Shown: positions 16,496 to 50,638 of the stretch, piece after piece
How positions within the stretch are numbered: the stretch's first letter is position 1
Layout: each line of letters starts with the position of its first letter
DNA from: Bacteroidia bacterium
GTDB lineage: Bacteria; Bacteroidota; Bacteroidia; AKYH767-A; JBBKVM01
Assembly (NCBI GenBank): GCA_037968415.1
Contig: JBBKVM010000136.1
Span: 4,886-68,885, forward strand
Length of the DNA: 64,000 nucleotides
Direction: 5' to 3'
Program-made: the position numbers and the translations under genes
The notes under the pieces: model-generated
What the model was told of the DNA's origin: nothing
Seen by the model: only the letters and a program-made list of their open reading frames with translations
Database searches by the model: none

Positions 16496-16514
16496 CTTAA
16501 ATATTCTTCAAGCA

Positions 16515-16546
16515 CAAAAAAGGCTGCCCGTGGGCAGCCTTTTTTA
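16515..16546. terminator. Bidirectional rho-independent terminator between convergent DinB-family and tonB genes
   Basis: AAAAAA-GGCTGCCC-gtg-GGCAGCC-TTTTTT. Confidence 0.65.
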
Positions 16547-16567
16547 ATTTCTTTTGAAGTTGGGTGT

Positions 16568-25206: not shown

Positions 25207-25280
25207 ACTTTATCAATGGTTCTGAGCATAATCAATTAGCATGATGTTGCTTTGGCTTACAATACTTATTTCGTGAAAAC

Positions 25281-25300
25281 AAAAAACCCCTTTCAAAGGG
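25281..25300 (-). terminator. Terminator downstream of ruvA, preceding the sprA promoter region
   Basis: Minus-strand RNA CCCUU-uga-AAGGG followed by GUUUUUU. Confidence 0.45.
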
Positions 25301-25350
25301 TTCAAAAATAATTAAAATATAAAAAAGCAGAAGCTTCTTTGTGGTTAGTT

Positions 25351-25929
25351 TTAAAGACTTTTCAACGATAGCTTCACAAGGTCTTCTATGGCCATCTCTG
25401 TATTGTCTTTCAAAATCTTATCTAGTGCTTTCTCTACTGCTAATTTTGGGAAACCTAATGTTACCAGTGCACTTAACGCTTCTGCACGGTGTGTATTGCC
25501 CTTTCCGGCCACCAAAGTGTACATTTCTTCCTTTTTCATTTTGTCTTTCAGATCAATAATAATACGCATGGCCGATTTTGCTCCAATACCTTTAATGCCT
25601 TGTAACAGTGGGGCATTGCCTTCGGCTATGGCATGTTGAATCTCTGCCGGTGACATAGACGACAAAATCATCCTTGCAGTACCAGCGCCAACTCCTGATA
25701 CAGATATCAGCTGCCGAAAAATCATACGCTCTTCTTCATCTACAAATCCAAACAACGTGTGTGCGTCTTCTTTGATTGACAGATGGGTGAAGATAGTCAC
25801 CTGTTCTGTATCAGGCACGCGGGTGTATGTATGCAAGCTGATATTGATAAAATATCCTACTCCTGCAGCTTCAACTACAAGTTGAGTGGGTGTTTTAGAC
25901 ACTAATCGGCCTTTAATAAATTCTATCAT
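25351..25929 (-). CDS. ruvA: Holliday junction branch-migration protein RuvA
   Basis: 192 aa. MIEFIKGRL..GVGY..HhH motifs GIGAKSA. Confidence 0.9.
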   Translation of the reverse strand: MIEFIKGRLVSKTPTQLVVEAAGVGYFINISLHTYTRVPDTEQVTIFTHLSIKEDAHTLFGFVDEEERMIFRQLISVSGVGAGTARMILSSMSPAEIQHAIAEGNAPLLQGIKGIGAKSAMRIIIDLKDKMKKEEMYTLVAGKGNTHRAEALSALVTLGFPKLAVEKALDKILKDNTEMAIEDLVKLSLKSL

Positions 25930-28196
25930 CCGTTGGTGCGTGATTGGGCATCCACTACGGCAATGGTCACCATGTTAACTATTTCGCGCACCGAACTTCC
26001 CAGTTGCAAAATGTGCACGGGCTTGTTCATTCCAAGAAGTACCGGCCCTATGGCCTCAGCCTCGCCAAGTTCCTGCATCAGTTTGTATGCAATGTTTCCG
26101 GCTTCAAGGCTTGGGAATATCATGGTGTTGGCGCCTGAATGCGCCAATTCTGAAAATGGGAAGTTGTCGCGTAACAGGCTGGGGTTGAGGGCAAAATTGG
26201 CCTGTATTTCACCATCGATAATGATATCAGGGTATTTCACATGTATGCGCTCTACGGCTTCGGCCACTTTGCGCGCACGCGGATCTTCTGACGAACCAAA
26301 ATTAGAGAACGACAGCATGGCTATGCGTGGGGTGTGGTTAAATTGCCTTACTGCAGTGGCTGTGAGGTGGGCTATTTCTACAAGTTCTTCTACAGTAGGA
26401 TTAACATTGATGGTGGTATCAGCAAAAAAGAATGGACCTTTTTTGGTAACCAAAATGTACATTCCTGCCACACGGGCTACGCCTTCCTGCGTTCCGATAA
26501 TTTGCAGCGAGGGCCTGATGGTATCGCTGTATTTTCTGGTGAGTCCAGAAATGAGTGCATCCGCTTCGCCCAACTCTACCATCATAGATGCAAAATAATT
26601 TCGCTCGCGCATGATTTTTCGCGCTTCGTACATGGTAAAGCCTTTGCGCTTGCGCTTCTGGAAAAAGATTTCGCCAAAGCTTTGGAGCTTTGATTCATCT
26701 GCGCGTGGGTCAATGATGGTGATGTCGCCCAGCTCCAGGTTGTTTTCTTCCATCAGGCTGGTAATCTTCTCTACGTTGCCGAGCAATATCGGATGTGCTA
26801 TGCCTTCATCACGCACCACTTGTGCGGCTTTCAATATTTTATAATTGTCGGCTTCGGCAAACACCACGCGCTTTGGGTTTTGGCGCGCTTTGCTGGTCAC
26901 GATACGTATCAGTTTGTTGTCAAGCCCCAGTCGCTTTACCAATTCTTCGCGGTAGTCGTCCCAGTTGGCTATTGTTTTTTGTGCCACACCCGAATCTATG
27001 GCGGCCTTGGCCACCGCAGGAGCTACAATTTCGATTAGGCGTGGGTCGAGTGGTTTGGGTATAATATATTCTCTGCCAAATACAATGTTCTTTTTGTTGT
27101 AGGCCAGGTTCACGATTTCAGGCACAGGCTCGCGCGCCAGATCGGCCAGTGCGCGCACTGCGGCAAGCTTCATTTCTTCATTGATGCGGGTGGCTCTTAC
27201 GTCCAAAGCACCACGAAATATGTAAGGGAACCCCAGAACGTTGTTCACTTGATTAGGATAATCAGATCTGCCGGTAGCGATGATGATGTCCGTCCGTGCC
27301 TCCACAGCTTTTTCGTAGGCTATCTCAGGGTCGGGATTGGCGAGGGCAAATACAATGGGGTTTTTGGCCATCGACTTCACCATCTTCTGCGTTACCACAT
27401 CTCCTTTCGATAGGCCCAGAAAAACGTCAGCGTCTTTCATGGCTTGCTCGAGGGTGTCTATCTTCCTGTCAGTGGCGAAATATTGCTTGCTCGCATCAAG
27501 ATTCTCGCGCTTCTTGTTTATCACTCCGGTGCTGTCCAACATTACAATGTTTTCGAGTTTGGCCCCCAGGGCTAAGTACAACTTTGCGCATGAAATGGCC
27601 GAGGCTCCTGCTCCATTCACTACTACTTTTACTTTCCCTATTTTTTTCTTGGCCAACTCGAGCGCGTTAATAAAAGCGGCAGCAGAAATAATCGCTGTAC
27701 CATGCTGGTCATCATGCATGATCGGAATATTCAACTCCTCTTTCAATCGTTGCTCTATCGCAAAACACTCCGGTGCTTTTATGTCCTCAAGATTGATGCC
27801 TCCAAAAGTAGGTGCGATGGCCTTCACGGTGGCAACAAATTCCTCCACACGCTGTTCGTTTATTTCAATATCAAAAACATCGATGTCAGCAAATATTTTG
27901 AATAGCAGCCCCTTTCCTTCCATCACTGGCTTGGATGCTTCGGGCCCAATGTTCCCCAATCCCAACACCGCGGTGCCATTGGTAATCACTGCTACCAAAT
28001 TTCCTTTTACTGTGTATTTGTAAACATCTTCAGGGTTTTCGCTAATGCGTATGCAGGGCTCGGCCACGCCCGGTGAATAAGCAAGGGCAAGGTCGCGCTG
28101 TGAACTGTATGGTTTAGTCGGAACTACTTCTATTTTGCCGGGACGGCCTTGTGCGTGATAATCGAGCGCGTCCTGTTTCCTGTTAATCTTGGGCAT
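25926..28196 (-). CDS. maeB: NADP-dependent malic enzyme with C-terminal phosphotransacetylase-like domain
   Basis: 756 aa. Malic-enzyme N-terminal motifs (YSPGVAEPC, VVNGAGASAI) plus a PTA-like C-terminal half. The stop overlaps the ruvA start (ATGA). Confidence 0.9.
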   Translation of the reverse strand: MPKINRKQDALDYHAQGRPGKIEVVPTKPYSSQRDLALAYSPGVAEPCIRISENPEDVYKYTVKGNLVAVITNGTAVLGLGNIGPEASKPVMEGKGLLFKIFADIDVFDIEINEQRVEEFVATVKAIAPTFGGINLEDIKAPECFAIEQRLKEELNIPIMHDDQHGTAIISAAAFINALELAKKKIGKVKVVVNGAGASAISCAKLYLALGAKLENIVMLDSTGVINKKRENLDASKQYFATDRKIDTLEQAMKDADVFLGLSKGDVVTQKMVKSMAKNPIVFALANPDPEIAYEKAVEARTDIIIATGRSDYPNQVNNVLGFPYIFRGALDVRATRINEEMKLAAVRALADLAREPVPEIVNLAYNKKNIVFGREYIIPKPLDPRLIEIVAPAVAKAAIDSGVAQKTIANWDDYREELVKRLGLDNKLIRIVTSKARQNPKRVVFAEADNYKILKAAQVVRDEGIAHPILLGNVEKITSLMEENNLELGDITIIDPRADESKLQSFGEIFFQKRKRKGFTMYEARKIMRERNYFASMMVELGEADALISGLTRKYSDTIRPSLQIIGTQEGVARVAGMYILVTKKGPFFFADTTINVNPTVEELVEIAHLTATAVRQFNHTPRIAMLSFSNFGSSEDPRARKVAEAVERIHVKYPDIIIDGEIQANFALNPSLLRDNFPFSELAHSGANTMIFPSLEAGNIAYKLMQELGEAEAIGPVLLGMNKPVHILQLGSSVREIVNMVTIAVVDAQSRTNG

Positions 28197-28271
28197 TTTA
28201 GATTTTTATTGTAAGGCGTTAAAATTACTATATAATATGGAATTGGATACGGAGAACGCGTGGGCTTAAAA

Positions 28272-28310
28272 AAAGCAAAAGCCGCAGATAAAATCTGCGG
28301 CTTTTGCTTG
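28272..28310 (-). terminator. Rho-independent terminator downstream of the T9SS cargo gene and upstream of maeB
   Basis: GCCGCAGAT-aaa-ATCTGCGGC, a perfect 9-bp stem flanked by A- and T-runs. Confidence 0.6.
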
Positions 28311-28323
28311 TTATAATTTTTTA

Positions 28324-29046
28324 TCAGTTGGCGCGCTTGTGCGCAACGACAATTTTGCGAGTAACGATTGGCTTGTTGCCATCAACCAGGCTCACAAAAT
28401 AAAATCCGGCATCAAAAGCCCAGGTAGGTATTACGACCACACCGGAACGCTCTGTCAACGGTTGTTCTTTCACTATGGAGCCCAAAATATTGCGAACTAC
28501 AAGTTTGGCATCAAAACTCATTCCTACTGCGTCAAAACGGAAGGCCACTGCGCGATCAGCAGGATTGGGATATCCCTGAGAGAAAATCTTAGCCTTTACT
28601 GATTCATTGATGCCGGTTGAATTTACATCATATGTAATGGTGATGCTGGCTTTGTCATTGGGATTATTGAGATCGTAAACTGTGTATTCCACAATGCTTA
28701 CGCCCACGTTATTGTAAGGGCTGATGGTCCCTTTAAAGGAATTGTCTGTGACTCCCGCTCCAAGCAATACGGTATCAGTAGCTACATCCGTACCAGGACC
28801 ATAGCAAGAAGGACCCCAGCAAAAATTATTGAACTGCCCCGAAGCCAGCGTTACAATCTGACGCTTGGCAATCACATATTTCATAGTAGAACTGGTGTTC
28901 ACTACCTGCATGTAGGCATCTATTGCAGATGCAGGGTCACCGGTGTAGGTGGTTTGCGCGCTGGTGATGGTGAAACTTTGAGCGCTGGCTATTCCGGCTG
29001 CAAATATGGTAATTGCGAAAAAAGAAAGTAATTTTTTAATCATCAT
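28324..29046 (-). CDS. Small secreted protein with T9SS C-terminal sorting domain
   Basis: Signal peptide MMIKKLLSFFAITIFAAGIASAQ (start moved to the ATG pair at 29046/29043). C-terminus ..LVVRNILGSIVKEQPL..GFYFVSLVDGNKPIVTRKIVV is a typical type-A CTD. Confidence 0.6.
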   Translation of the reverse strand: MMIKKLLSFFAITIFAAGIASAQSFTITSAQTTYTGDPASAIDAYMQVVNTSSTMKYVIAKRQIVTLASGQFNNFCWGPSCYGPGTDVATDTVLLGAGVTDNSFKGTISPYNNVGVSIVEYTVYDLNNPNDKASITITYDVNSTGINESVKAKIFSQGYPNPADRAVAFRFDAVGMSFDAKLVVRNILGSIVKEQPLTERSGVVVIPTWAFDAGFYFVSLVDGNKPIVTRKIVVAHKRAN

Positions 29047-29109
29047 GTTTAATTTTCGGAGTTGTAAAAATAGCATTTCTCTTTTTACCATCAAAGGAAA
29101 AAGATAGCC

Positions 29110-30546
29110 TTATCGGACAATAAGTTTTTGCGTGCATTGTTGCGTAACAGACTCTCTTTTAATCACATAAACACCTGCGGGAAGGGAAACAGAGATAGGA
29201 TCCATCACATTTTGGCCTGTCCACATGTTTCTTCCGTTCATATCAATCACTTCAATTTGCGTGCTCAGATTTCCAAGGGGCTTAATAGAAACAGACTCTT
29301 TGTTTGCCGGATTGGGATACATAGCCTCCTCACACAAGGCATGCGCGAGAGGTGTGCGTATGGACAAGAGCCCATTTTGATTGAGGTGCAATAACAGATA
29401 ATCGTTGTCATTGAGATAAGAAGTACCGCAAGCATAGAACCCGGAATGCCCATCGGAAATGATGCCGTAACCGATGTCAATGCCAGTGTCGCCATAATGT
29501 GTTTCCCACAAAATAGTTCCTGTGTAGTCGGTCATAAACACCACCATGTCGAGCGGCAGGCTGGGGTTGTGGCTATTTGAATAACCCGTGAAAACAAATC
29601 CACTCCCCGGCACTTCGACCGCACTAAATGCAGCATCTCCGCCAGGACCACCAGGTGTGGCGGTCCATATTTCATTGCCGGCAGTATCAATCAGCACCAG
29701 GTTGTAATCAAACATAACTCCCGGAGCGGGAACCGTTTCACCAAACATCAAATAATTACCTGACTGCGTCACAATCAGTCCCTGGCAACCATTTGCCAGG
29801 CTATCGCCATAAGTGGCATCCCACAACACATTACCAAAACTATCAGTTTTAACCAACCACAGGTCATAATCACCTGCTCCATAGCTTCGGGTATCGCCAT
29901 GTATTAAGAAGGACCCATCCGCCAATACCACCGCACTAATTGCATAGTCATTGTCACTGCCACCATAAATTTTTTCCCATTCAAAGTTACCCTGGGCGTC
30001 AAGTTTTATCATCAGCATATCATTCGCATTGGTGGGGTGAGCTCTTGATCCCACGATGATAAACCCACCATCCGCAGTTTGCCTTAATGCTTTACCTCCT
30101 TCGTTGGCAGGCGTAGCAAAGGCGTTGTTTACCAATACATTGCCTGCCGTGTCTATCTGCAAAAAAACCACATCGCTGCCTGCAGTTCCACCAATAGCTT
30201 CCCCAACAATGGCCAAACTTCCATCTGCACACAAAATAATTTCATTAGCTACTTCATCTATGTTTTTACCATAGTATTGTGTCCAAATCAGGTTGCCCAA
30301 AGTATCAGCCTTTGTCACTGTGATATCATAGGTCCCGGTGGGGGATGCATTTGAAAATCCACAAAAGTAAAGGTGGCCTGATGGTGCTAATAATACATTA
30401 CGTGCACGGTCATCAAGCGAAGTCCCCAATCGACTTTCAAAATAGGTTGCTTGACAAACACCTGAATTACAGGCCGCTAGAATACAAAAAATTCCTAAAA
30501 AAAAACGTTTCAATATTAAGGTTTTTTGGGTATTATTGTCGTCCAA
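29110..30546 (-). CDS. T9SS-secreted beta-propeller protein (SBBP-like repeats) with C-terminal sorting domain
   Basis: Six or seven ~50-aa repeats of the form ..D(T/A)xGNxxWxxxYGG... C-terminal CTD (..VSLPAGVYVIKRE..QKLIV). The track start is TTG at 30546. An in-frame TTG at 30513 gives MKRFFLGIFCILAAC. There is no in-frame ATG. Confidence 0.65.
   Translation of the reverse strand: MDDNNTQKTLILKRFFLGIFCILAACNSGVCQATYFESRLGTSLDDRARNVLLAPSGHLYFCGFSNASPTGTYDITVTKADTLGNLIWTQYYGKNIDEVANEIILCADGSLAIVGEAIGGTAGSDVVFLQIDTAGNVLVNNAFATPANEGGKALRQTADGGFIIVGSRAHPTNANDMLMIKLDAQGNFEWEKIYGGSDNDYAISAVVLADGSFLIHGDTRSYGAGDYDLWLVKTDSFGNVLWDATYGDSLANGCQGLIVTQSGNYLMFGETVPAPGVMFDYNLVLIDTAGNEIWTATPGGPGGDAAFSAVEVPGSGFVFTGYSNSHNPSLPLDMVVFMTDYTGTILWETHYGDTGIDIGYGIISDGHSGFYACGTSYLNDNDYLLLHLNQNGLLSIRTPLAHALCEEAMYPNPANKESVSIKPLGNLSTQIEVIDMNGRNMWTGQNVMDPISVSLPAGVYVIKRESVTQQCTQKLIVR
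30497..30505 (-). repeat. A9/T9 homopolymer inside the signal-peptide codons of the beta-propeller cargo gene
   Basis: Plus strand aaaaaaaaa encodes ..KRFFL.. (AAA CGT TTT TTT TTA) on the minus strand. It is the longest mononucleotide run I saw in the window. Confidence 0.9.
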
Positions 30547-30578: not shown

Positions 30579-32462
30579 ATGAAAAAATTTACTTTTCTGT
30601 TATTAATTACTATTGCCAGCAGTGTAGCTTTTGCGCAGTCGCAAAGGTTGGTTCTTATGGAGTATTTCACACAAGCCTCTTGTGGTCCTTGTGCAACATA
30701 CAACCCCAATATCAATGCCTTGCTTGCTGCCAACCCCAACCTGGTGGTTGCGCTCAAATACCAAACTTCTTGGCCTGGATATGACCCAATGAACTTGCAC
30801 AATCCAACAGAAATCCAAAACCGTGTTTCTTATTACGGTGTTTCTGGAGTTCCGGCTGGAGTAATTGATGGCAACTATTATCAAGGACATCCAAATGGTA
30901 TAAACCAAACTTCTCTCAACACCCGTGGTGCAGTGACAAGTCCATTTACCATTGTGCTCAACCACACATTGTCTCCTGCTTTAGATGCCATCAATATTAC
31001 AGGCACAATCACTGCTACCGGTGCACTGAGCGGAAGCTATGTGGTGCGTGTAGCCGTAATCGAAAAGCAAATTTCATTCAATACTGCACCAGGTACCAAT
31101 GGAGAAAAAGTATTTCACAGTGTGATGAAAAAAATGCTGCCTACTCCAAATGGAGAGGCACTTCCTGCTACTATCAACGTAAACGACCAATTTACTATCA
31201 GCCAATCATGGCAGTTGGCCAACATCTACGACCTCAATCAGGTTGCGGTTGTTGCCTTTATACAAAACACTGCTAACAAAGAAGTGATGCAAGCAGGCTA
31301 CAGCGGTCCTCAGCAATTGGCTATTGATGCCGGTGTATCAGCTGTGACTGCAGTGCCGTTGTTCACTTGTGCGAACACAATCACACCTACTGTTACCATC
31401 AAAAACTTTGGTGCCAGTGATGTGACTTCGCTTGATATTAATTACGCAGTAAATGGTGGTGCCGTTTCTACACAACCTTGGGCCGGTACACTGGCTTCAG
31501 GCGCTACCGCCAACGTAACGCTTCCTTCTATCACTGTTCCTGCTGCTGCGTCAAATGCTTCAAACGTGAGCATTTATGTTTCAGGCACTAACGGAATCGG
31601 TGAGTTGAATCATGCTAACGACACAGCACGTAAGTCTTTTGATTACATCACCAATTATGCCATGGCCCCAGTAGCTGAAGGTTTTGTGGGTGTTCAGTTT
31701 CCTCCTGCTGATTGGATGTTGAACAATCCTGATGGTGGTGCTACCTGGTCGCGCAAAACAGCTGCCGGTGGATTTGGTGCTTCAAGCACTTGCTCTAAAA
31801 TGGATTTCTATAACAGCACCAGCGGAAACGTGGATGAACTGTACATTAAACCATTGAACTTGTCAACTGTGTCTGGTCCTTTATCATTGGTATTCAACAT
31901 GGCGTATTGCCAGTACCAAGCTGAAAACGACAGACTGGAAGTACAGGTATCTACCAACTGCGGTGCAAGCTGGAATACAGCATTCACCAAGCAAGGTGCC
32001 GCTATGTCTACAGCACCTGCACAAACGGCATCATTCACTCCAAACGCTACACAATGGCGTGGAGAAATGGTAGACCTTACAACCTACCTGGGTCAAACAG
32101 AAGTATTGATTCGATTTAAAGCCACCAGCGCTTATGGCAACAATATGTACATTGACGATATCAATGTGGCCAACGTAACAGGTGTAAATGATTTGGCTAA
32201 CACTGCCGTGAACTTCAACATATACCCTGTGCCCGTAACCGAGAAAGCTACTATCTCTTTTGAACTGAAAGAAAAATCAAAAGTGGAGATTGCTATGATT
32301 AACAATTTGGGCGAAACAGTGATAGTGAATTCATTAGGTAATGTATCGGCAGGTAAACATGCTCACAGCATGAATGTATCTGAATTACCTGCAGGCATTT
32401 ATTTTATGACCCTTACTACAGGCAACCAATCTGTAACACGCAAAATCGCTGTTGCACGATAA
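30579..32462 (+). CDS. Omp28-related CxxC protein fused to a T9SS C-terminal sorting domain
   Basis: Start at ATG 30579 (MKKFTFLLLITIASSVAFAQ). The track start at 30345 overlaps the divergent gene. N-terminal LMEYFTQASCGPCATYNP is a thioredoxin-like CxxC context, paralogous to VLVEDYTGHTCGNCP of the gene at 34756. C-terminal type-A CTD (..NFNIYPVPVTEKATISFEL..GIYFMTLTTGNQSVTRKIAV). Confidence 0.6.
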   Translation: MKKFTFLLLITIASSVAFAQSQRLVLMEYFTQASCGPCATYNPNINALLAANPNLVVALKYQTSWPGYDPMNLHNPTEIQNRVSYYGVSGVPAGVIDGNYYQGHPNGINQTSLNTRGAVTSPFTIVLNHTLSPALDAINITGTITATGALSGSYVVRVAVIEKQISFNTAPGTNGEKVFHSVMKKMLPTPNGEALPATINVNDQFTISQSWQLANIYDLNQVAVVAFIQNTANKEVMQAGYSGPQQLAIDAGVSAVTAVPLFTCANTITPTVTIKNFGASDVTSLDINYAVNGGAVSTQPWAGTLASGATANVTLPSITVPAAASNASNVSIYVSGTNGIGELNHANDTARKSFDYITNYAMAPVAEGFVGVQFPPADWMLNNPDGGATWSRKTAAGGFGASSTCSKMDFYNSTSGNVDELYIKPLNLSTVSGPLSLVFNMAYCQYQAENDRLEVQVSTNCGASWNTAFTKQGAAMSTAPAQTASFTPNATQWRGEMVDLTTYLGQTEVLIRFKATSAYGNNMYIDDINVANVTGVNDLANTAVNFNIYPVPVTEKATISFELKEKSKVEIAMINNLGETVIVNSLGNVSAGKHAHSMNVSELPAGIYFMTLTTGNQSVTRKIAVAR

Positions 32463-32486
32463 GGCCAACTGATTTTTAAATATATT

Positions 32487-32537
32487 AAATCAGCAGTTTG
32501 GTGCAATTTTTGATACCAAACTGCTGATTTCTTTTTA
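32487..32537 (+). terminator. Strong rho-independent terminator (16-bp perfect stem)
   Basis: AAATCAGCAGTTTGGT-gcaatttttgat-ACCAAACTGCTGATTT followed by CTTTTTAT. Confidence 0.7.
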
Positions 32538-32560
32538 TACAACACTTACCAAATATTGAC

Positions 32561-33082
32561 ATGAACAGAATTACAATTTTAGTGCTCTCATTGATGCTGG
32601 TATGCGCGACTGCTGCCACTGCGCAAGATGGTTTGAAACAACTTCCACAGATTAACATCAAAACCATGGCAAACAAAAACATTAATACGGCTTCGTTTGA
32701 GAATGATGGCAATCCGATAGTGGTTAGTTTCTGGGCCACATGGTGTAAGCCTTGTGTGAGCGAACTTACGGCAATGGCCGAATTATATGATCAGTGGCAG
32801 AAAGAAACCGGTGTGAAAATTATTGCCGTGTCAATTGACGATGCCCGAAATATGGCCAAAGTAGCACCATTTGTCAATGGCAAAGACTGGTATTACGAAG
32901 TTTACATTGACCCCAATAGCGACTTCCGCAGATCTATGAATGTAAACGTAATACCACACACATTTTTATTAAACAGCGAAAAAGAAATTGTTTGGCAACA
33001 CAACTCTTATGCTCCTGGTGATGAACTTAAACTTTATGAAAACATCAAAAAGCTAAAAGAGGGTAAACCTATAACCGAATAA
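32561..33082 (+). CDS. TlpA-like periplasmic thiol:disulfide oxidoreductase (thioredoxin fold)
   Basis: 173 aa. Signal peptide. WATWCKPCVSELTAM matches the TlpA/ResA WCxxC active site. Confidence 0.8.
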   Translation: MNRITILVLSLMLVCATAATAQDGLKQLPQINIKTMANKNINTASFENDGNPIVVSFWATWCKPCVSELTAMAELYDQWQKETGVKIIAVSIDDARNMAKVAPFVNGKDWYYEVYIDPNSDFRRSMNVNVIPHTFLLNSEKEIVWQHNSYAPGDELKLYENIKKLKEGKPITE

Positions 33083-33104
33083 CCGCTCACAAACCCTAAT
33101 TATT

Positions 33105-34724
33105 TTGAAACCAAATTACGCATTGGCCCTGGTGGCCTCACTTTTTATTTCGTTCCAATCTCAAGCACAAATAGCCGGTGGCTCGATTAGCGGTAATTTC
33201 CAAACGGATGTGCAGTACTACATAGAAGACACAATCATAGGCGTACCCGATGTGCCTGAAACCATGCTCATGAATGGGTTTGCCAATGTGATCTATAGCA
33301 AGGATAAGTTCTCTGCAGGCCTTCGTTATGAATCGTATTTGAACCCACTGTTGGGGTTTGATTCGCGCTACAAAGGTGCCGGCATTGTATACAGGTATGC
33401 TACTTACGAGTACGAAGGGCTCGAAGTAACTGCAGGTAGTTTTTATGAGCAATTCGGAAATGGAATGATTTTGAGAAGCTACGAGGAGCGTGGGCTGGGA
33501 TTTGACAATGCACTGGATGGCATTCGATTGAAATACAAACCGGTATCAGGCCTTTATCTCAAAGGATTTATTGCGCGTCAGCGTTCGTTTTTTGCCTACG
33601 GCCCTGGCATTGTGCGCGGATTTGATGCCGAACTGGCGTTGAATGAGGCTTTTGCAAAACTGAGTGAACGCAACACCAACATTACAGTGGGTGGGAGTGT
33701 GGTAAGCAAATTTCAAAAAGATGAAGATCCTTTGTACCGCTTGCCCGAAAACGTGGCCGCCTTTTCCGGCCGCACCACCATCACGCGCGGCAAGGTCGCG
33801 CTGAATGGAGAATATGCTTACAAAATTAATGACCCACAATTTGTGAATGACCGCATTTACCGCAATGGCCAGGCCCTGCTGGTCTCTGCATCTTATTCAC
33901 AAAGAGGTATGGGCCTGATCCTTAGCGCCAAGCGCGTGGACAATATGAACTTCCGATCGGACAGAAACTCTTTTGGCAACGACCTCGGATTAAACTACTT
34001 ACCCGCCCTCACCCGCCAACACACCTACACACTTGCCACCGTTTATCCCTACGCCACCCAGCCCAATGGCGAAATGGCCGCACAAGGCGAATTCACCTAT
34101 AAGTTCAAACCTTCAACCACATTGGGAGGTAAGAATGGCACTGCTTTGTTTATCAATTTTTCACGAGTCAACAGCATCGATACCATAAACTATAACGACC
34201 CCCGCGGTTACAAATCAGATTTCTTCGCGGTGGGTGATGAAATTTATTATCAGGAACTGAGCGTGGATGTGACCAAAAAACTGACTGACAAACTGAAACT
34301 CAGCGTGAGTGCCATGGATGTAATTTATAACAAAGGCGTAGTGGAAAAACCGGGGGAACCCATCGTCTATGCCAACATTGGCATAATCGACCTCACCTGG
34401 AAAATAAGGCCTACCCGCACCCTACGCACCGAGATTCAACACCTCTACACCGAACAGGACAAAGGCAACTGGGCCATGTTGTTGTTTGAATATTCAGCAG
34501 CTCCTCACTGGTTTATCACCGTTTTTGACGATTACAATTATGGAAATGATGTGATAGAAAAACAAATTCATTACGCCACTGCGGGCATCACCTATGTGAA
34601 AAGTGCCAATCGGTTTTCGCTCACATACGGCAGACAAAAAGAAGGCATCTTTTGTGTGGGTGGAGTATGCCGCAACGTACCTGCCACCAATGGATTCTCG
34701 TTTACGGTAACCAGCAGTTTTTAG
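33105..34724 (+). CDS. Outer-membrane beta-barrel protein of unknown function (DUF6029-like)
   Basis: 539 aa. Signal peptide. Alternating aromatic beta-strand pattern. C-terminal ..CVGGVCRNVPATNGFSFTVTSSF with a terminal Phe. The family assignment is from memory of the C-terminal signature only. Confidence 0.5.
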   Translation: MKPNYALALVASLFISFQSQAQIAGGSISGNFQTDVQYYIEDTIIGVPDVPETMLMNGFANVIYSKDKFSAGLRYESYLNPLLGFDSRYKGAGIVYRYATYEYEGLEVTAGSFYEQFGNGMILRSYEERGLGFDNALDGIRLKYKPVSGLYLKGFIARQRSFFAYGPGIVRGFDAELALNEAFAKLSERNTNITVGGSVVSKFQKDEDPLYRLPENVAAFSGRTTITRGKVALNGEYAYKINDPQFVNDRIYRNGQALLVSASYSQRGMGLILSAKRVDNMNFRSDRNSFGNDLGLNYLPALTRQHTYTLATVYPYATQPNGEMAAQGEFTYKFKPSTTLGGKNGTALFINFSRVNSIDTINYNDPRGYKSDFFAVGDEIYYQELSVDVTKKLTDKLKLSVSAMDVIYNKGVVEKPGEPIVYANIGIIDLTWKIRPTRTLRTEIQHLYTEQDKGNWAMLLFEYSAAPHWFITVFDDYNYGNDVIEKQIHYATAGITYVKSANRFSLTYGRQKEGIFCVGGVCRNVPATNGFSFTVTSSF

Positions 34725-34755
34725 TAAATTACATTTTGAAAAAATATTACAACCA

Positions 34756-35631
34756 ATGAACAAGTTGACAAGAATGATCGCATTGATTGCGGTTATCGTT
34801 CTCTCTTCATGCGACAAAATTGATGCTCCTTACTTTGACGATATCATTACAGGGCCTACCGACACCACTCAATTTGTTCGCAAAGTATTGGTGGAAGATT
34901 ACACAGGACACACGTGTGGCAATTGCCCTAAAGCAGCCGAAGAAGCAGATGCCATTGCTCAATTGTATGGAAATAAAGTAGTGTTGATGGCTGTGCATGC
35001 AGGTTTTTTTGCCGTTCCTGCACCCCCCGCTCCATTGCCATCGGGCGCTCCTACCGGTTCGTTTGCTACTGATTTTAGAACTACCGCAGGTGATATATAT
35101 GATGGCCAACAATATTTTGGAATATCGAACATTGGTAATCCCAATGGAATGGTGAACCGTAAAAAAGTCAACAACAATTATGTGGTGAGTTATACCAACT
35201 GGGGCGCGCAAGTTGCAGCATTGCTGGCTACGGCACCTCAGGTAGGCACGAACCTTTCCGCTGATTACAATACCACCACCCGCACAGCAAACATCACTTT
35301 GACCACGCGCGTTCTTTCCCCTCTGACATCCAGTTTTAAAGTAGTAGCATGTATCACCGAGAGCAACATTATTACCTGGCAACGTGATGACCGGCTAACC
35401 AACCGCAACGTGCCCGACTACAATCACAAACATATACTGAGGGCCAATATTAACGGAACCTGGGGTGACGACATAGTTTCCGCCTCCAATGCCGTAGGCA
35501 CTGATGTAACGACTACTTTCACCTATTCACTTCCTGCTAACTTCAATGAGAATAATTGTTCGGTGGTGATTTACATTTACGACACCACCTCGCTTGAAGT
35601 GATACAAGCAGATGAAGTAAAATTAAAATGA
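34756..35631 (+). CDS. Omp28-related outer-membrane lipoprotein with thioredoxin-like CxxC
   Basis: 291 aa. Lipobox VLSSC. VLVEDYTGHTCGNCP motif. Confidence 0.55.
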   Translation: MNKLTRMIALIAVIVLSSCDKIDAPYFDDIITGPTDTTQFVRKVLVEDYTGHTCGNCPKAAEEADAIAQLYGNKVVLMAVHAGFFAVPAPPAPLPSGAPTGSFATDFRTTAGDIYDGQQYFGISNIGNPNGMVNRKKVNNNYVVSYTNWGAQVAALLATAPQVGTNLSADYNTTTRTANITLTTRVLSPLTSSFKVVACITESNIITWQRDDRLTNRNVPDYNHKHILRANINGTWGDDIVSASNAVGTDVTTTFTYSLPANFNENNCSVVIYIYDTTSLEVIQADEVKLK

Positions 35632-35642
35632 TGCTGTTCTGA

Positions 35643-36254
35643 ATGCGAATAATTGTCCTGTTCTTTTCAATGATATTCACTATGTGGGCTGCTCAGGCGC
35701 AGCGATTCGATGCAGGTGCGATAGCAGGTGCGAGCACTTCACAGGTATCGGGCGACAGACTAGCCGGATACGATAAAGTGGGCCTGAATTTGGGTGGGTT
35801 TGTGGTTACATCATTCAGCGATAAAATTAGTTTTGGTTTTGAACTCACTTACATTCAAAAGGGCAGCCGAAAAAATTCGAAGCCTGAACAGGGTGATTTC
35901 ACAGCATATCTGCTCAAACTCAATTATGCAGAAGTACCAATGCTTGTTAAGTTTCGTTACAACAATCGGTTTGAATTTGAAGCAGGACCCTCAATTGGCG
36001 TATTGCTAGGTTCGAAAGAAGAAGATGAAAACGGCACAATACCTGTGCAAATAGCCTTCGAAAAATATGATCTGTCACTGGCCGCTGGAATGAATTATTA
36101 TTTCACTGACAACTTGTTCCTCAACTCCCGCATTTCGAATTCTATATTGCCGGTACGTCCGCATGAGTCAGGAGCTGTATCAGGATTCAACAGAGGTCAG
36201 TACAATTCGGTACTCGCATTTACACTTCGGTATCAGTTTAACAAAGCTGAGTAA
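35643..36254 (+). CDS. Small outer-membrane beta-barrel (PorT/OmpA-like porin family)
   Basis: 203 aa. Signal peptide ..AAQAQ. About 8 amphipathic strands. C-terminal ..RYQF. Confidence 0.5.
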   Translation: MRIIVLFFSMIFTMWAAQAQRFDAGAIAGASTSQVSGDRLAGYDKVGLNLGGFVVTSFSDKISFGFELTYIQKGSRKNSKPEQGDFTAYLLKLNYAEVPMLVKFRYNNRFEFEAGPSIGVLLGSKEEDENGTIPVQIAFEKYDLSLAAGMNYYFTDNLFLNSRISNSILPVRPHESGAVSGFNRGQYNSVLAFTLRYQFNKAE

Positions 36255-36265: not shown

Positions 36266-36832
36266 ATGGAACAAAAACACAAAATAATTGTTTCTGTATC
36301 TGGCGCCAGTGGAGCGATATACGCACGTAGCCTATTTGAAAGACTGGCATCATTAAAAGATCAGATCGAGGCGGTAGGTGTGGTGATGTCGGACAATGCA
36401 AAGCAAGTATGGACACACGAATTGGGTGAAGCGAAGTATGATGATTATGGATTTACATTTTACGACAAGCGCGACTTCATGGCACCGTTTGCTTCCGGTT
36501 CTGCACGTTATGGCACTATGATTATTTGTCCATGTTCCATGGGTACACTAGGTCGCATTGCGGCAGGAATTTCAGATGATTTAGTAACGCGCGCTGCTGA
36601 CGTGATACTAAAAGAAAGACGCAAATTAGTTCTTGTCACACGAGACACACCGCTCAACCTGATTCATATTGAAAACATGCGTAATGTTACGCTTGCAGGT
36701 GGAATCATTTGCCCGGCAACACCTTCGTTTTACAGTCACCCAAAAACCTTGGATGATGTAGCCAAGACTGTTGTGGATAGGGTAATTGATTTATGTGGGC
36801 TAGAAAACAACTCCTATCGCTGGGGTAGCTGA
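36266..36832 (+). CDS. ubiX: Flavin prenyltransferase UbiX
   Basis: 188 aa. KIIVSVSGASGAIYA..MIICPCSMGTLGRIAAGISDDL is the typical UbiX/Pad1 flavoprotein pattern. Confidence 0.88.
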   Translation: MEQKHKIIVSVSGASGAIYARSLFERLASLKDQIEAVGVVMSDNAKQVWTHELGEAKYDDYGFTFYDKRDFMAPFASGSARYGTMIICPCSMGTLGRIAAGISDDLVTRAADVILKERRKLVLVTRDTPLNLIHIENMRNVTLAGGIICPATPSFYSHPKTLDDVAKTVVDRVIDLCGLENNSYRWGS

Positions 36833-36946
36833 TAAACAAAGTATTGAAAATGAACGTGTTGTAAGTTTTAATATCAATTTAACATCTATTGGACAATTAA
36901 TCACATATATTGTTGTTCAATATAATACCAACAGTAGTAAAGTAAA

Positions 36947-37135
36947 ATGCTAGAATACTCAAAGGAAATCCTTCTCAAAGTTAGTTTCGATAAAGTACTC
37001 TTCACCAAAGAACTTGGCAAAGCAATCAAGTGGTTAAAAAATGATGAACAACGTGTGTTAATGATGTGGTGCCTTGCCACTTTTGGGGCAAAGTATTCCG
37101 ATGTTATCATCAGCATGTTCAGGAGAGCTTACTAA
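36947..37135 (+). CDS. Hypothetical small protein (62 aa)
   Basis: The only ORF in an otherwise empty ~290-nt gap. Its 3' end overlaps the convergent queG stop. No recognisable motif. May be spurious. Confidence 0.2.
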
Positions 37136-38048
37136 TATAACTTACATTTCTTTTCATACCTGCAGCACCCGTGCGGGACAATGCCGAAGTTCCAAATTTC
37201 TCTTTAAAAATTTCCTCCGTTAACTCAAGCCAGTCGCTGGTTTTCATTTGTTGCAATGATTCGTTTGCAGCAAACTCCTTTTCGTTCGTGGGTTTTGAGA
37301 ACCGATTCCACGGGCACACATCCTGACAAATATCACAGCCAAACACCCACTTGCCAAACTTTTCAGGCTCAGGATAGGGAATCTGATCTTTGAGTTCGAT
37401 GGTAAAATAAGATATGCATTTACTACCATCTACCACATAGGGTTCAACAATTGCCTGCGTGGGACAAGCATCTATGCAGCGCGTGCAGGTGCCGCAAAAA
37501 TTCTGCGCGTGTGCATCGTACTCTAATTCCAGGTCAATTATAAGTTCAGCGATAAAGAAAAAACTTCCACTTTGCTTGTTGAGTAGATTGGAATTTTTCC
37601 CGACCCAGCCAAGGCCACTGCGCGCGGCCCATACTTTATCCATCACTGGGGCACTGTCTACAAACACACGGCCACCCACTTCTCCAATCTCTGATCTGAG
37701 GGTGTGCATCATTTCTTGCAGCTTTGTTTTTATCACAGAGTGATAGTCATTGCCATAAGCATATTTAGAAATTTTCAGCGCCTCATTCCCCGATTCGTTT
37801 TCGGGAAAATAATTCAACAACAACGATACTACACTTTTGGCTCCTTCAACCAGTTTGGTGGGATCCAATCGTTTGTCGAAATGATTCGCCATGTAATGCA
37901 TCTCACCATGCATGCCTTTGCTAAGCCACTCCTCCAGCCGTACAGCTTCTGGTTCCAAAAATTCTGCACGCGAAATACCACATGCCATAAATCCCAACCG
38001 CGCAGCTTCATCTTTGATGATGCGTGTGTGTCGGGCCTTATTGTTCAT
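37119..38048 (-). CDS. queG: tRNA epoxyqueuosine(34) reductase
   Basis: Two ferredoxin-like Cys clusters [12 protein letters not shown] and [11 protein letters not shown]. Start moved from the track's TTG (38075) to ATG 38048 (MNNKARH..). Confidence 0.85.
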
Positions 38049-38084
38049 AATGAAAGGATGTGAATGCCTAAGCAAGTTGTTGCA

Positions 38085-39113
38085 CTAGTCAAACAAAGTG
38101 TTGGATCCGTGGGTTTTCTTTTTTCCCAAATGTGCGTAGGCCCTATCTGTCACTTCTCTGCCACGCGGGGTACGCATAATAAATCCTTGCTGAATGAGAA
38201 AGGGTTCGTACACTTCTTCAATAGTGCCGGCTTCTTCGCTCACTGCGGTGGCAATGGTGTTGAGACCCACAGGGCCACCTTTAAACTTATCGATGATGGT
38301 GGTAAGAATACGCACATCCATTTCATCAAGGCCACGTTCATCCACATTGAGCGCTGAAAGAGAAGATCTTGAAATGTCCATATCTATATTGCCATTGCCT
38401 TTTACCTGCGCGAAGTCTCGCACACGCCTTAGCAGCGCATTGGCAATACGCGGGGTGCCGCGGCTCCGGCTGGCTATTTCAAATGAGGCGTCATCTTCAA
38501 TCTTTATTTTCAAGATATCCGCACTACGGTTTACGATCAATTGCAGGCGTTCGGTATCGTAATATTCTAGTCGCGAGGTGATGCCAAAGCGGGCCCGTAG
38601 TGGTGATGTGAGAAGGCCTGAGCGCGTGGTGGCGCCAATAAGCGTAAATGGGTTTAATTGTATTTGCACTGAGCGCGCGCTGGGTCCTGAGTCAATCATG
38701 ATATCGATACGATAATCTTCCATGGCCGAGTAGAGATACTCCTCTATTACCGGACTAAGGCGGTGAATCTCGTCAATGAACAGCACATCATTTGGCTCCA
38801 GATTAGTGAGGAGACCGGCTAGATCACCGGGCTTTTCAAGCACCGGGCCCGAAGTTAGTTTCATGGACACTCCCAACTCGTTGGTGATGATACTGGCCAG
38901 TGTGGTTTTACCTAGTCCGGGCGGGCCATGCAACAATACGTGATCAAGTGCTTCACCTCGCTGCTTAGCAGCAGTAACGAATATGCGCAGATTTTCTACT
39001 GTTTTTTGTTGACCCGTAAAATCTTCGAAAGCGACCGGGCGAAGTGCCCTGTCTATTTCTTTTTCTTCTGGCGAAAACGATTCGCCTGTGGCATCAAGTA
39101 AAGGATTGACCAT
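38085..39113 (-). CDS. ruvB: Holliday junction ATP-dependent helicase RuvB
   Basis: Walker [14 protein letters not shown], sensor motifs, C-terminal winged helix. Start moved from the track's TTG (39158) to ATG 39113 (MVNPLL..). Confidence 0.9.
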
Positions 39114-39177
39114 GGATTGAGAATGTGCTTGGTGCAAACAAAAATAACAAAAAACCAAACAGGCTTGTGCCGCCCTT

Positions 39178-39214
39178 AAACACTTCAGGCCTGCAATGCA
39201 GGCCTGAAGTGTTT
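39178..39214 (-). terminator. Long palindromic hairpin downstream of the cytochrome oxidase subunit I gene
   Basis: AAACACTTCAGGCCTGCA-a-TGCAGGCCTGAAGTGTTT, a near-perfect 18-bp inverted repeat containing AGGCCT. T-rich on the plus side. Confidence 0.5.
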
Positions 39215-39228
39215 TTATTTATATCCGA

Positions 39229-41043: not shown

Positions 41044-41073
41044 TGATGTATCGTTTTTAAATCCTAGTTAAAA

Positions 41074-42294: not shown

Positions 42295-42333
42295 TTGATA
42301 TTCAAATTATTTCTTAAAATCTTCTTTACTCAA

Positions 42334-43524: not shown

Positions 43525-43555
43525 CGTTTTGCCTTTTATCTCCGGACTGTTTTTA

Positions 43556-44191: not shown

Positions 44192-44206
44192 GTTCTTTTT
44201 TATGCT

Positions 44207-46088: not shown

Positions 46089-46121
46089 ATTGATACCGGC
46101 TGTGTGCCTTTTATTAATGTA

Positions 46122-49157: not shown

Positions 49158-49194
49158 TTATCCTATTGTATTATAATATGGTGGATTGTAGTGA

Positions 49195-50630: not shown

Positions 50631-50638
50631 ATAATTTT
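50631..50638 (+). promoter_or_regulatory. Candidate -7 box TAATTTTG (tandem TATAATTTTA TAATTTTG) 8 nt upstream of the SPOR gene ATG
   Basis: Matches the Bacteroidota sigma-A -7 consensus TAnnTTTG. The spacing implies a leaderless or very short-leader mRNA. Confidence 0.25.

What the first reader, a model, noticed from the sequence alone, without database searches (positions are those of the whole stretch)
30579..36254. Conserved-looking envelope module: TlpA-like thioredoxin + DUF6029-like OM barrel + two Omp28-related CxxC proteins (one T9SS-secreted) + PorT-like barrel
Five co-directional, tightly spaced genes (gaps of 12-98 nt) encode three thioredoxin-like/CxxC proteins and two OM barrels. 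The CxxC proteins are a WCKPC TlpA-like protein and two paralogous proteins with ..E(D/Y)(F/Y)TxxxCGxCP.. motifs. Those two are addressed differently: one has a type-A T9SS C-terminal domain and so would be surface-attached, and the other has a lipobox. All five are predicted to be exported. This looks like a dedicated thiol-redox (or thiol-dependent transport) pathway that reaches from the periplasm to the cell surface. It could supply reducing equivalents to T9SS cargo or handle a redox-active substrate at the outer membrane. I know of no characterised function for the Omp28-related/DUF6029 pairing. The paralogous CxxC motif in a T9SS cargo protein is unusual, because surface proteins rarely keep redox-active thioredoxin motifs.
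Basis: partly seen in the sequence, partly recalled or inferred. Interest (0 to 1): 0.7.

Follow-up and report, generated by a model that had tools for sequence, protein, structure and literature searches.

The report
Conserved outer-membrane thiol-redox gene module
The finding is real: its core is a three-gene unit (a periplasmic thioredoxin-like reductase, a large outer-membrane barrel of unknown function and a thioredoxin-fold lipoprotein) kept together across Bacteroidota, including Porphyromonas gingivalis, where it sits beside the secretion regulator PorA, and its function has never been studied.

Summary
All five genes exist as described. The conserved unit is smaller on one side and larger on the other.

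**Core.** TlpA-like reductase (32561-33082), DUF6029 barrel (33105-34724) and Omp28 lipoprotein (34756-35631). In 80 genomes carrying DUF6029, TlpA lies directly upstream in 72/75 loci and Omp28 directly downstream in 65/68.

**DUF6029.** It models as a 24-strand, usher-sized barrel. Its only two cysteines are invariant and sit in the last outward-facing hairpin.

**Accessory genes.** The T9SS-anchored paralog (30579-32462) is followed by a terminator. The small barrel (35643-36254) travels with ubiX, not with the trio.

**New link.** The upstream 28324-29046(-) gene is PorA-like. In P. gingivalis the order is TlpA-like, DUF6029, Omp28, PorA.

**Best reading.** An outer-membrane thiol-disulfide module serving surface proteins that carry Cys pairs. 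The mechanism is inferred, not shown.

The parts
32561..33082 (+). Core gene 1: periplasmic TlpA/ResA-like thiol-disulfide oxidoreductase (173 aa). Signal peptide ends ATA|Q. Motif WCKPC with Glu at +3 after the second Cys.
   Evidence: Pfam AhpC-TSA, Redoxin and Thioredoxin_8 are above cutoff. The best NCBIfam hits are ResA and StoA, both below their equivalog cutoffs. C62, C65 and E68 are at least 90% conserved in 74 syntenic homologs. The gene lies directly upstream of DUF6029 in 72/75 loci.
33105..34724 (+). Core gene 2: DUF6029 outer-membrane barrel (539 aa), modelled with 24 strands. Its only two cysteines, C517 and C522 (F-C-V-G-G-V-C-R-x-V-P), sit in the hairpin between the last two strands.
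34756..35631 (+). Core gene 3: Omp28-family lipoprotein (291 aa). Lipobox Cys19, a conserved tether C-D-[KY]-[IV]-[ED]-x-P-[YF], a thioredoxin-like domain (44-157, C54-G-N-C57-P) and a beta-sandwich (163-289).
30579..32462 (+). Accessory gene: T9SS-anchored Omp28/HBP35-like thioredoxin-domain protein (627 aa). Domains: Trx-like/Omp28-like region (about 20-250, S-C-G-P-C), CARDB, choice-of-anchor J and a type-A CTD.
   Evidence: A large Trx/Omp28-like paralog lies within 6 kb of DUF6029 in 13/40 loci with full flanks. The family profile hits thioredoxins (E 1e-3) and HBP35 only weakly (E 0.1).
32487..32530 (+). Terminator-like hairpin followed by a U-run, between g1 and the core operon.
   Evidence: dG -25.5 kcal/mol, z -5.95, 0 of 200 shuffles fold as well.
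28324..29046 (-). It has an Ig-like N-domain with an invariant F-C-x4-C-Y-x-P pair, plus a type-A CTD.
   Evidence: The CTD is supported by Pfam and TIGR04183. The family profile A3 hits the PorA N-domain crystal 6KJK, which has no CTD, at E 3.3e-6. Full-length homologs lie near the trio in 28/80 loci and in 20/40 loci with full flanks. In P. gingivalis, porA directly follows omp28.
35643..36254 (+). Small generic outer-membrane barrel (203 aa). Probably not part of the module; it is linked to ubiX instead.
   Evidence: OMP_b-brl_2 only, with no PorT-specific model hit. It is present in 20/80 loci. The g5-ubiX pair also occurs detached, on the opposite strand upstream of the trio, in L008, L012 and L013. 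It is absent from the P. gingivalis module.

Best explanation
The region encodes a conserved thiol-disulfide oxidoreductase module associated with the outer membrane. Its core operon has three genes.

- A Sec-exported, soluble TlpA/ResA-type periplasmic reductase.
- A 24-strand DUF6029 barrel in the outer membrane, carrying one invariant Cys-x4-Cys hairpin on its outward-facing end.
- An Omp28-family lipoprotein made of a thioredoxin-fold domain (CxxC) and an Ig-like beta-sandwich, the same two-domain fold as HBP35.

Proposed mechanism. The TlpA-like protein is recharged by an inner-membrane CcdA/DsbD-type protein encoded elsewhere. It passes reducing equivalents to the Omp28 thioredoxin domain, which is held at or in the barrel by its lipid anchor and its conserved N-terminal tether. 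The Omp28-barrel pair then reduces or isomerises Cys pairs of outer-membrane and surface proteins. The best client candidates are the proteins whose genes travel with the trio: the PorA-like T9SS cargo (invariant Cx4C), the T9SS-anchored HBP35-like thioredoxin paralog, and the barrel's own Cys pair.

Shown here: family membership, the predicted folds, the invariance of the Cys pairs, and synteny that includes P. gingivalis. Inferred: the direction of electron flow, physical association of the three proteins, which way Omp28 faces, and the identity of the clients.
For: 1. Synteny. TlpA is immediately upstream of DUF6029 in 72/75 loci and Omp28 immediately downstream in 65/68. In loci with full flanks the figures are 39/40 and 38/40. 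The loci span Bacteroidales, Flavobacteriales and Ignavibacteria/Kapaibacteria MAGs. No other neighbour family is shared by more than 22 loci. Median intergenic gaps are 23 and 11 nt.

2. Same order in the complete P. gingivalis genome. Redoxin (160 aa), DUF6029 (581 aa), Omp28, then PorA, with gaps of 55, 19 and 25 nt.

4. Experimental precedent. HBP35 has insulin-reductase activity that depends on its two Cys residues (PMC2907840).

5. One Cys pair per core protein. Each of the three core proteins keeps exactly one invariant Cys pair: TlpA in 74/74, DUF6029 in 81/81, and Omp28 in all 74 ORFs downstream of the barrel. The PorA-like family keeps a pair in 29/29.

6. Reductase-type motifs. g2 has WCxPC with Glu at +3, as in ResA/CcmG (plus my own knowledge of ResA). 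g1 has CGPC. NCBIfam also holds an 'Omp28-related selenoprotein' model, which fits a catalytic redox role for this position.

7. Outer-membrane location. PG2174 (DUF6029) is detected in P. gingivalis outer-membrane vesicles (PMC4335976).
Against: - No experiment bears on any of the three core proteins as a unit.
- No CcdA/DsbD gene was found among the window genes scanned with Pfam (9647-17275, 18109-30546 and 36266-53904) or among the conserved neighbour families that were inspected. Genes at 1-9600 and 53964-64000 were not scanned.
- Which way Omp28 faces is unknown. Its post-Cys motif does not match the published Bacteroidota lipoprotein export signal (plus my knowledge of that signal).
- In P. 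gingivalis, mutating PorA Cys92/96/137/181 did not affect PorXY-SigP activation (PMC12152298).
- No oxidative-stress phenotype was found for hbp35 mutants.
- The barrel's Cys pair could simply be a structural staple.
- A few DUF6029 genes stand alone (L011, L019).
- Both structures are predictions.
Confidence: 0.5

Rival explanations
1. DUF6029 is mainly a protein conduit or assembly platform. It would be a wide, usher-sized barrel that brings the Omp28 lipoprotein, the small Ig-like PorA-type protein, or both, to the cell surface independently of the T9SS translocon. The TlpA-like and Omp28 CxxC motifs would act only as folding or quality control, keeping the passenger's Cys pair reduced until it is outside.
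For: - The PorA N-domain is Ig-like and most similar to the FimH lectin domain (PMC7712824).
- porA is the next gene after omp28 in P. gingivalis.
- PorA-like genes accompany the trio in 20/40 loci with full flanks.
- A conserved tether motif follows the lipidated Cys of Omp28.
Against: - Similarity to ushers covers barrel size only. There is no plug, N-terminal or C-terminal usher domain, and no chaperone or pilin genes.
- Half of the genomes have no PorA-like gene nearby.
- Long conserved loops (113-136, 279-321) may occlude the lumen.
- No data show that DUF6029 is required for PorA or Omp28 exposure.
Confidence: 0.2
2. The module is a nutrient-uptake system for haem, iron or another metal. 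HBP35/Omp28-type proteins would bind the ligand at the surface, with the CxxC (plus conserved His) reducing or coordinating it, and DUF6029 would be the diffusion channel.
For: - HBP35 binds hemin through its C-terminal part, and hbp35 mutants grow poorly when hemin is limited.
- hbp35 is up-regulated in an hmuYR mutant.
- A 2026 preprint proposes iron-related roles for similar T9SS and lipoprotein thioredoxins.
- Omp28 has an invariant H81 and a nearly invariant H52 next to the CxxC.
Against: - The trio is conserved in free-living aerobic and anaerobic Bacteroidota that are not haem auxotrophs.
- No TonB-dependent receptor, haem or iron gene is among the conserved neighbour families that were inspected.
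- hbp35 is not induced by hemin limitation.
- DUF6029 has no plug or TonB box.
Confidence: 0.12
3. DUF6029 is a polysaccharide export or anchoring porin (Wzi-like), and the redox genes are unrelated neighbours.
Against: - Wzi has 18 strands, whereas the model has 24 and matches ushers better.
- No OPX, PCP, flippase or glycosyltransferase family is among the conserved neighbour families that were inspected or in the called genes around the P. gingivalis module.
- Linkage to TlpA and Omp28 above 95% is not compatible with chance.
Confidence: 0.05
4. The TlpA-like protein serves cytochrome c or CuA oxidase maturation, like ResA or TlpA, and merely sits near outer-membrane genes.
For: The best NCBIfam hits are ResA, StoA, DsbE and TlpA. 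An ACIII plus caa3 oxidase cluster lies 3-14 kb downstream in the window.
Against: - All equivalog cutoffs are missed by a wide margin (79 against 170 bits, and similar).
- The same trio occurs in rumen and digester Bacteroidales and in the obligate anaerobe P. gingivalis.
- The oxidase cluster is not a conserved neighbour.
Confidence: 0.05

Closest known systems
HBP35 (PG0616/PGN_0659) of Porphyromonas gingivalis, PDB 5Y1A
   Different: In P. gingivalis, hbp35 is monocistronic and is not one of the genes in the 20 kb around the omp28 module. g4 is a lipoprotein without a CTD. g1 has extra CARDB and choice-of-anchor J domains and only weak sequence similarity to HBP35 (E 0.1). Hemin binding was not tested for either protein.
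Omp28 (PG2173) of P. gingivalis, PDB 2R2C, with its neighbours PG2175, PG2174 and PG2172
   Same: g4 passes the Omp28 lipoprotein HMM. The full-length P. gingivalis protein also has the lipobox C-D and the F-T-G-x-x-C-x-x-C-P motif. Its gene sits in the same order, Redoxin then DUF6029 then Omp28 then PorA.
   Different: The crystal structure covers only the part from residue ~108 onward (the tail of the thioredoxin-like domain plus the beta-sandwich), so the CxxC segment is missing from it. In the window, the PorA-like gene is upstream and divergent instead of downstream, and a T9SS-anchored paralog has been added.
PorA (PGN_0123/PG2172), T9SS cargo and PorY ligand, PDB 6KJK
   Same: The window's 240-aa protein has the same size and architecture (signal peptide, Ig-like domain, type-A CTD). 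The profile hits the PorA N-domain at E 3.3e-6. The conserved Cys pair is at the aligned position. The genomic partner genes are the same.
   Different: Pairwise identity is very low. The spacing is Cx4C here and Cx3C in P. gingivalis. The regulatory function through PorY is untested outside P. gingivalis, and PorA's cysteines are dispensable for that function.
TlpA/ResA/CcmG periplasmic reductases fed by CcdA/DsbD
   Same: A thioredoxin fold, the WCxPC motif with a downstream Glu, and an exported location.
   Different: The protein is below every equivalog cutoff. It is soluble rather than membrane-anchored. It is linked to outer-membrane genes rather than to cytochrome maturation genes.
MtrCAB porin-cytochrome conduit (functional analogy only)
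   Different: There are no haem-binding CxxCH motifs. Electron carriers here would be dithiol/disulfide pairs. No evidence exists for insertion of either partner into the barrel.
Chaperone-usher pore (FimD/PapC)
   Different: There are no plug, N-terminal or C-terminal usher domains, no chaperone or pilin genes, and only 10% identity.

Membership tests
Omp28 family outer membrane lipoprotein (NF033782 / PF11551), for g4 | HMM score above the curated cutoff | tested here: met
   NF033782 scores 175.4 bits against a cutoff of 150. PF11551 scores 100.2 against 34.9.
Omp28 family outer membrane lipoprotein (NF033782 / PF11551), for g4 | Lipobox Cys, and a C-terminal domain homologous to the solved Omp28 domain | tested here: met
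HBP35-like thioredoxin plus Ig-like surface proteins, for g4 and g1 | Two-domain fold with CxxC at the N-terminus of helix 1 | tested here: met
HBP35-like thioredoxin plus Ig-like surface proteins, for g4 and g1 | Sequence homology of g1 to HBP35 | tested here: inconclusive
   The g1-type profile A4 hits 5y1a at E 0.1, although over the full length. The g4-type profile A1 hits it at E 0.005.
HBP35-like thioredoxin plus Ig-like surface proteins, for g4 and g1 | Type-A T9SS C-terminal domain | tested here: met
   g1 meets it: PF18962 E 1.6e-13 and TIGR04183 E 1.1e-11. g4 has no CTD and is a lipoprotein instead.
HBP35-like thioredoxin plus Ig-like surface proteins, for g4 and g1 | Disulfide reductase activity and hemin binding | not testable with these tools
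   These are known only for HBP35 itself (PMC2907840).
TlpA/ResA/CcmG-type periplasmic thiol-disulfide oxidoreductase, for g2 | Exported thioredoxin fold with WCxPC and a downstream Glu | tested here: met
   Pfam Redoxin and AhpC-TSA are above cutoff. W61, C62, P64, C65 and E68 are at least 90% conserved. The signal peptide is visible by inspection.
TlpA/ResA/CcmG-type periplasmic thiol-disulfide oxidoreductase, for g2 | Orthology to a named member (equivalog cutoff) | tested here: not met
   ResA scores 79.5 against 170, StoA 69.7 against 210, DsbE 45.3 against 123, and TlpA 41.6 against 230.
TlpA/ResA/CcmG-type periplasmic thiol-disulfide oxidoreductase, for g2 | Electron supply from CcdA/DsbD | not tested
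   None was seen among the window genes scanned or among the conserved neighbour families that were inspected. The whole genome was not available.
DUF6029 (PF19494), for g3 | Full-length HMM match | tested here: met
   623.8 bits against a cutoff of 27, covering profile positions 7-538 of 538.
Chaperone-usher usher, for g3 | 24-strand barrel plus plug, N-terminal and C-terminal domains, with a cognate chaperone and pilins | tested here: not met
   Only the barrel size and fold match. The protein is all barrel, and no chaperone or pilin families are among the neighbours.
Wzi-type polysaccharide porin, for g3 | 18-strand barrel linked to OPX or capsule genes | tested here: not met
PorA (T9SS regulator cargo), for window 28324-29046(-) | Ig-like N-domain homologous to 6KJK, plus a type-A CTD, at about 240 aa | tested here: met
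   Profile A3 hits 6kjk at E 3.3e-6 over the N-domain. The CTD matches at E 2.6e-7 and 3e-8.
PorA (T9SS regulator cargo), for window 28324-29046(-) | Activates PorY-PorX-SigP through its CTD | not testable with these tools
   Counts of basic residues in the CTD do not discriminate.
PorT (T9SS outer-membrane component), for g5 | A specific PorT/SprT model hit, or linkage to T9SS genes | tested here: inconclusive
   Only the generic OMP_b-brl_2 matched, plus a below-cutoff TDE1717-family hit. The gene travels with ubiX.

The most novel reading that the evidence does not exclude
The trio is a thiol-based redox conduit across the outer membrane. Its architecture is analogous to MtrCAB and its logic to DsbD. 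Reducing equivalents would pass from the periplasmic TlpA-like protein, through a relay held in the 24-strand DUF6029 barrel (its invariant outward-facing Cys pair, an Omp28 thioredoxin domain inserted in the lumen, or both), to thioredoxin-fold and Cys-pair proteins displayed on the cell surface (HBP35-like and PorA-like). That would explain how a surface thioredoxin such as HBP35 can be recycled at all. A sister version, equally not excluded, is that the same barrel is the unknown T9SS-independent route by which PorA reaches the surface.
Probability: 0.15. Interest if true: 0.9.

Novelty: new variant of a known kind. Interest (0 to 1): 0.64.

Why it matters
Three P. gingivalis proteins have been studied separately for years: Omp28 (an antigen with a partial structure), HBP35 (a surface thioredoxin and hemin binder whose thioredoxin role is unknown) and PorA (the T9SS regulator, with an unexplained T9SS-independent route to the surface and an N-domain of unknown function). 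This work places them in one conserved gene neighbourhood with two unstudied partners, PG2175 (TlpA-like) and PG2174 (DUF6029).

That turns two open questions into simple knockout and thiol-trapping experiments in a tractable organism. How is a thioredoxin outside the outer membrane kept reduced? How does PorA cross the outer membrane without Sov?

It also gives DUF6029, a family with thousands of members, its first concrete functional context. And it shows that PorA-like proteins are widespread in environmental Bacteroidota.

Tried and rejected
1. **Selenocysteine variants.** NCBIfam lists an Omp28-related selenoprotein. I re-read in frame the 19 Omp28 ORFs that had failed a strict motif regex. 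All have ordinary CxxC, and no in-frame TGA replaces a Cys.

2. **Promoter motifs.** The sigma-70 scan is uninformative for Bacteroidota. The Bacteroidota -7 motif TAnnTTTG is not enriched in the window (55 found, 56 expected) and no copy lies upstream of g1 or g2.

3. **PorA-type basic CTD.** Counts of basic residues do not separate the PorA-like family from other CTDs.

4. **Lipoprotein export signal.** The residues after the lipid Cys form a conserved motif of their own (C-D-[KY]-[IV]-[ED]-x-P-[YF]) and not the published K-(D/E)2-type signal. Surface exposure of Omp28 therefore remains undecided.

5. **g5 as 'PorT-like' and part of the module.** Rejected on synteny and for lack of a specific HMM hit.

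6. **Polysaccharide export and cytochrome or CuA maturation roles.** Considered and given low weight; see the rival explanations.

7. **Source organism.** The two window proteins are singletons with no name in the protein collection.

8. **Literature on PG2173-PG2175 / PGN_0120-0122.** Only proteomic listings turned up. The 'PGN_0120' hit is a mislabelled W83 capsule locus.

9. **Complex prediction.** The structure-prediction cap (2 jobs) was reached, so no complex could be attempted.

Full report
**Observation**

The gaps are 98, 22, 31 and 11 nt.

HMM searches confirm each family assignment.
- g1 combines an Omp28-related region, CARDB, choice-of-anchor J and a type-A T9SS C-terminal domain.
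- g2 is a Redoxin/AhpC-TSA thioredoxin-fold protein with WCKPC.
- g3 is a full-length DUF6029 (E 3.3e-187).
- g4 passes the curated cutoff of the Omp28 family lipoprotein model (175 against 150 bits) and has a lipobox.
- g5 is a generic OMP_b-brl_2 barrel.

Four of the proteins have A-x-A|Q signal-peptidase sites, read directly from the sequence. Two things were missed. ubiX follows g5 after 11 nt. A strong hairpin with a U-run (32487-32530, dG -25.5 kcal/mol, z -5.95) separates g1 from g2, so g1 is probably its own transcription unit.

**Which genes belong together**

I fetched 80 genomic loci that encode a DUF6029 relative at 43-57% identity. They come from Bacteroidales, Flavobacteriales, Lentimicrobiaceae, Prolixibacteraceae and Ignavibacteria/Kapaibacteria MAGs. 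I searched their ORFs with the window proteins.

- A TlpA-like gene lies immediately upstream of DUF6029 in 72 of 75 loci that have room for it.
- An Omp28-type lipoprotein gene lies immediately downstream in 65 of 68.
- In the 40 loci with at least 5 kb on both sides, the figures are 39/40 and 38/40.
- Median gaps are 23 and 11 nt.

All-against-all clustering of every ORF in the loci found no other family shared by more than 22 loci apart from the small T9SS-cargo family described below. The largest of these were inspected, and they are lineage-specific housekeeping genes. The trio is therefore the conserved unit.

The other genes are less consistent. A large Trx/Omp28-like paralog of the g1 type is present in 13/40 loci. 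The g5 barrel is present in 12/40. The g5-ubiX pair also occurs detached, on the opposite strand upstream of the trio (L008, L012, L013). I therefore do not count g5 as part of the module.

**An unexpected member**

The 256-aa ORF upstream on the minus strand is a small T9SS cargo. Its likely start gives 240 aa (28324-29046). Full-length homologs lie near the trio in 28/80 loci, and in 20/40 of those with full flanks. They sit either just downstream of omp28 on the same strand or upstream and divergent. The family has an invariant Cys pair, F-C-x4-C-Y-x-P.

**The P. gingivalis connection**

I reconstructed the sequence of the Omp28 crystal fragment (2r2c) from the alignments and used it to recover full-length P. 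gingivalis Omp28. That protein also has the lipobox C-D and an F-T-G-Q-K-C-L-N-C-P motif, which the crystallised fragment lacks.

In the complete genome CP024594 the gene order is:
- Redoxin/AhpC-TSA (160 aa)
- DUF6029 (581 aa)
- Omp28
- a 240-aa protein

The gaps are 55, 19 and 25 nt, and the cluster lies directly after nqrA-F. The P. gingivalis DUF6029 ends in ...N-C-S-G-G-V-C-R-V-V-P.... The 240-aa protein is PorA (6KJK, E 8.9e-85).

A profile of the window's small-cargo family hits the PorA N-domain crystal, which contains no CTD, at E 3.3e-6. The window gene is therefore PorA-like.

PorA is the T9SS cargo whose CTD activates PorY-PorX-SigP. [quoted passage not shown] Its N-domain has no known function, and its cysteines are dispensable for signalling (PMC7712824, PMC12152298). 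Neither PorA paper mentions Omp28 or the neighbouring genes. Searches for PG2173-2175 and PGN_0120-0122 returned only proteomic listings, including PG2174 in outer-membrane vesicles.

**Structures**

*Omp28 (g4).* The model was built from 58 homologs (pLDDT 92). It has beta1 at 44-50, C54-x-x-C57 at the N-terminus of helix 57-74, beta2 at 75-81 ending in invariant H81, invariant P129 before beta3, and helix 146-157. A beta-sandwich follows at 163-289.
- The next matches are the DUF1223 protein 2axo and the Omp28 fragment.
- The sequence profile also hits thioredoxins, and HBP35 over the CxxCP...H segment.

HBP35 is a T9SS cargo with Cys-dependent insulin-reductase activity and separate hemin binding. 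A redox-type CxxC in a T9SS cargo is therefore established, not unusual.

**Mechanism**

Each core protein carries exactly one invariant Cys pair. Two of them have thioredoxin folds with reductase-type features. g2 has WCxPC followed by Glu at +3, as in ResA/CcmG (my knowledge of those proteins). The g1 paralog has CGPC.

The most economical reading is a reductive or isomerising thiol-disulfide pathway anchored at the outer membrane. It would be fed from the periplasm by the TlpA-like protein, and ultimately by a CcdA/DsbD-type protein that I did not find among the window genes scanned. The likely clients are the Cys-pair proteins whose genes co-travel with the trio: the PorA-like cargo, the HBP35-like paralog and the barrel itself. 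I put this at 0.5.

The rivals are:
- a protein conduit or assembly role for the barrel, attractive because of PorA's T9SS-independent export and its FimH-like fold (0.2);
- haem or metal acquisition (0.12);
- polysaccharide export (0.05);
- cytochrome or CuA maturation (0.05).

Against my own best reading: there is no phenotype for PorA Cys mutants in signalling, no oxidative-stress phenotype for hbp35 mutants, the orientation of Omp28 is unknown, and the barrel's Cys pair may simply be structural.

**Novelty and verdict**

The parts belong to known families, so this is not a new kind of protein. The conserved TlpA-DUF6029-Omp28 unit and its association with PorA-like and HBP35-like cargo appear to be undescribed. 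They give a testable frame for two open questions in the T9SS and P. gingivalis field. I rate it a new variant of a known kind, with interest about 0.64.

The most novel reading not excluded is a dithiol relay across the outer membrane, or the barrel acting as PorA's alternative exit. I put that at about 0.15 probability, and it would be of high interest if true.

Noticed in passing
window 18109-25206 (-): A 2365-aa SprA/Sov homolog (SprA_N, E 5.8e-205), the T9SS translocon. It lies about 3 kb from the PorA-like gene and is followed by ruvA and a malic enzyme gene. The window therefore holds the translocon, three T9SS cargo genes and the redox trio within 18 kb.
   Followed up: partly
window 39229-50508 (-): An alternative complex III (ActD, NrfD-like, molybdopterin/Fe-S subunit, multihaem cytochrome c) plus cytochrome c oxidase subunits I and II. 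The organism is therefore an aerobic respirer. The cluster is not conserved next to the trio in other genomes.
   Followed up: partly
window 34810-34833 (g4 residues 19-26) and alignment A1: The residues just after the lipidated Cys of Omp28 form a strongly conserved motif, C-D(58/58)-[KY]-[IV]-[ED]-x-P(56/58)-[YF]. Conservation this strong is unusual for a lipoprotein tether. It suggests a docking or sorting peptide, and it does not match the published Bacteroidota surface-export signal.
   Followed up: partly
window 34650-34682 (g3 residues 516-526) and 28747-28776 (-) (PorA-like residues 91-100 of the 256-aa ORF): The barrel and the PorA-like cargo carry look-alike motifs around their invariant Cys pairs: F-C-V-G-G-V-C-R-N-V-P in the barrel and F-C-W-G-P-S-C-Y-G-P in the cargo. 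This may be a shared recognition hairpin or a coincidence.
   Followed up: no
window 28273-28309: A perfect 17-bp GC-rich inverted repeat with T-runs on both strands lies between the malic enzyme gene and the PorA-like gene. It looks like a bidirectional terminator.
   Followed up: no
window 29110-30546 (-): A 478-aa T9SS cargo with beta-propeller-type repeats (SBBP / delta-60-like) sits between the PorA-like gene and g1. Homologs are near the trio only in close relatives (L028, L034, L040; similar-sized CTD proteins lie at the same position in L081 and L082). The annotated TTG start leaves only 32 nt to g1, so the true start is uncertain.
   Followed up: partly
proteins P0277-P0302: The PorA-like family is large, with 1134 cluster representatives at E<1e-10. 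It includes versions of about 370, 500 and 695 aa with two, three or four matched stretches, presumably tandem copies of the N-domain.
   Followed up: no
window 11511-12500 (-) and 12475-13956 (-): Two adjacent, slightly overlapping aldehyde dehydrogenase ORFs. One is full length (493 aa). The other matches only the N-terminal half of the family profile (329 aa). This may be a truncated duplicate or a pseudogene.
   Followed up: no
locus L009 3146-7650: One Bacteroidales MAG lacks the Omp28 lipoprotein after DUF6029. It has a T9SS-type paralog with HBP35's exact CGYC motif directly upstream of TlpA. It also has a cytoplasmic-type thioredoxin (WCGPC, 105 aa) divergently next to it.
   Followed up: no
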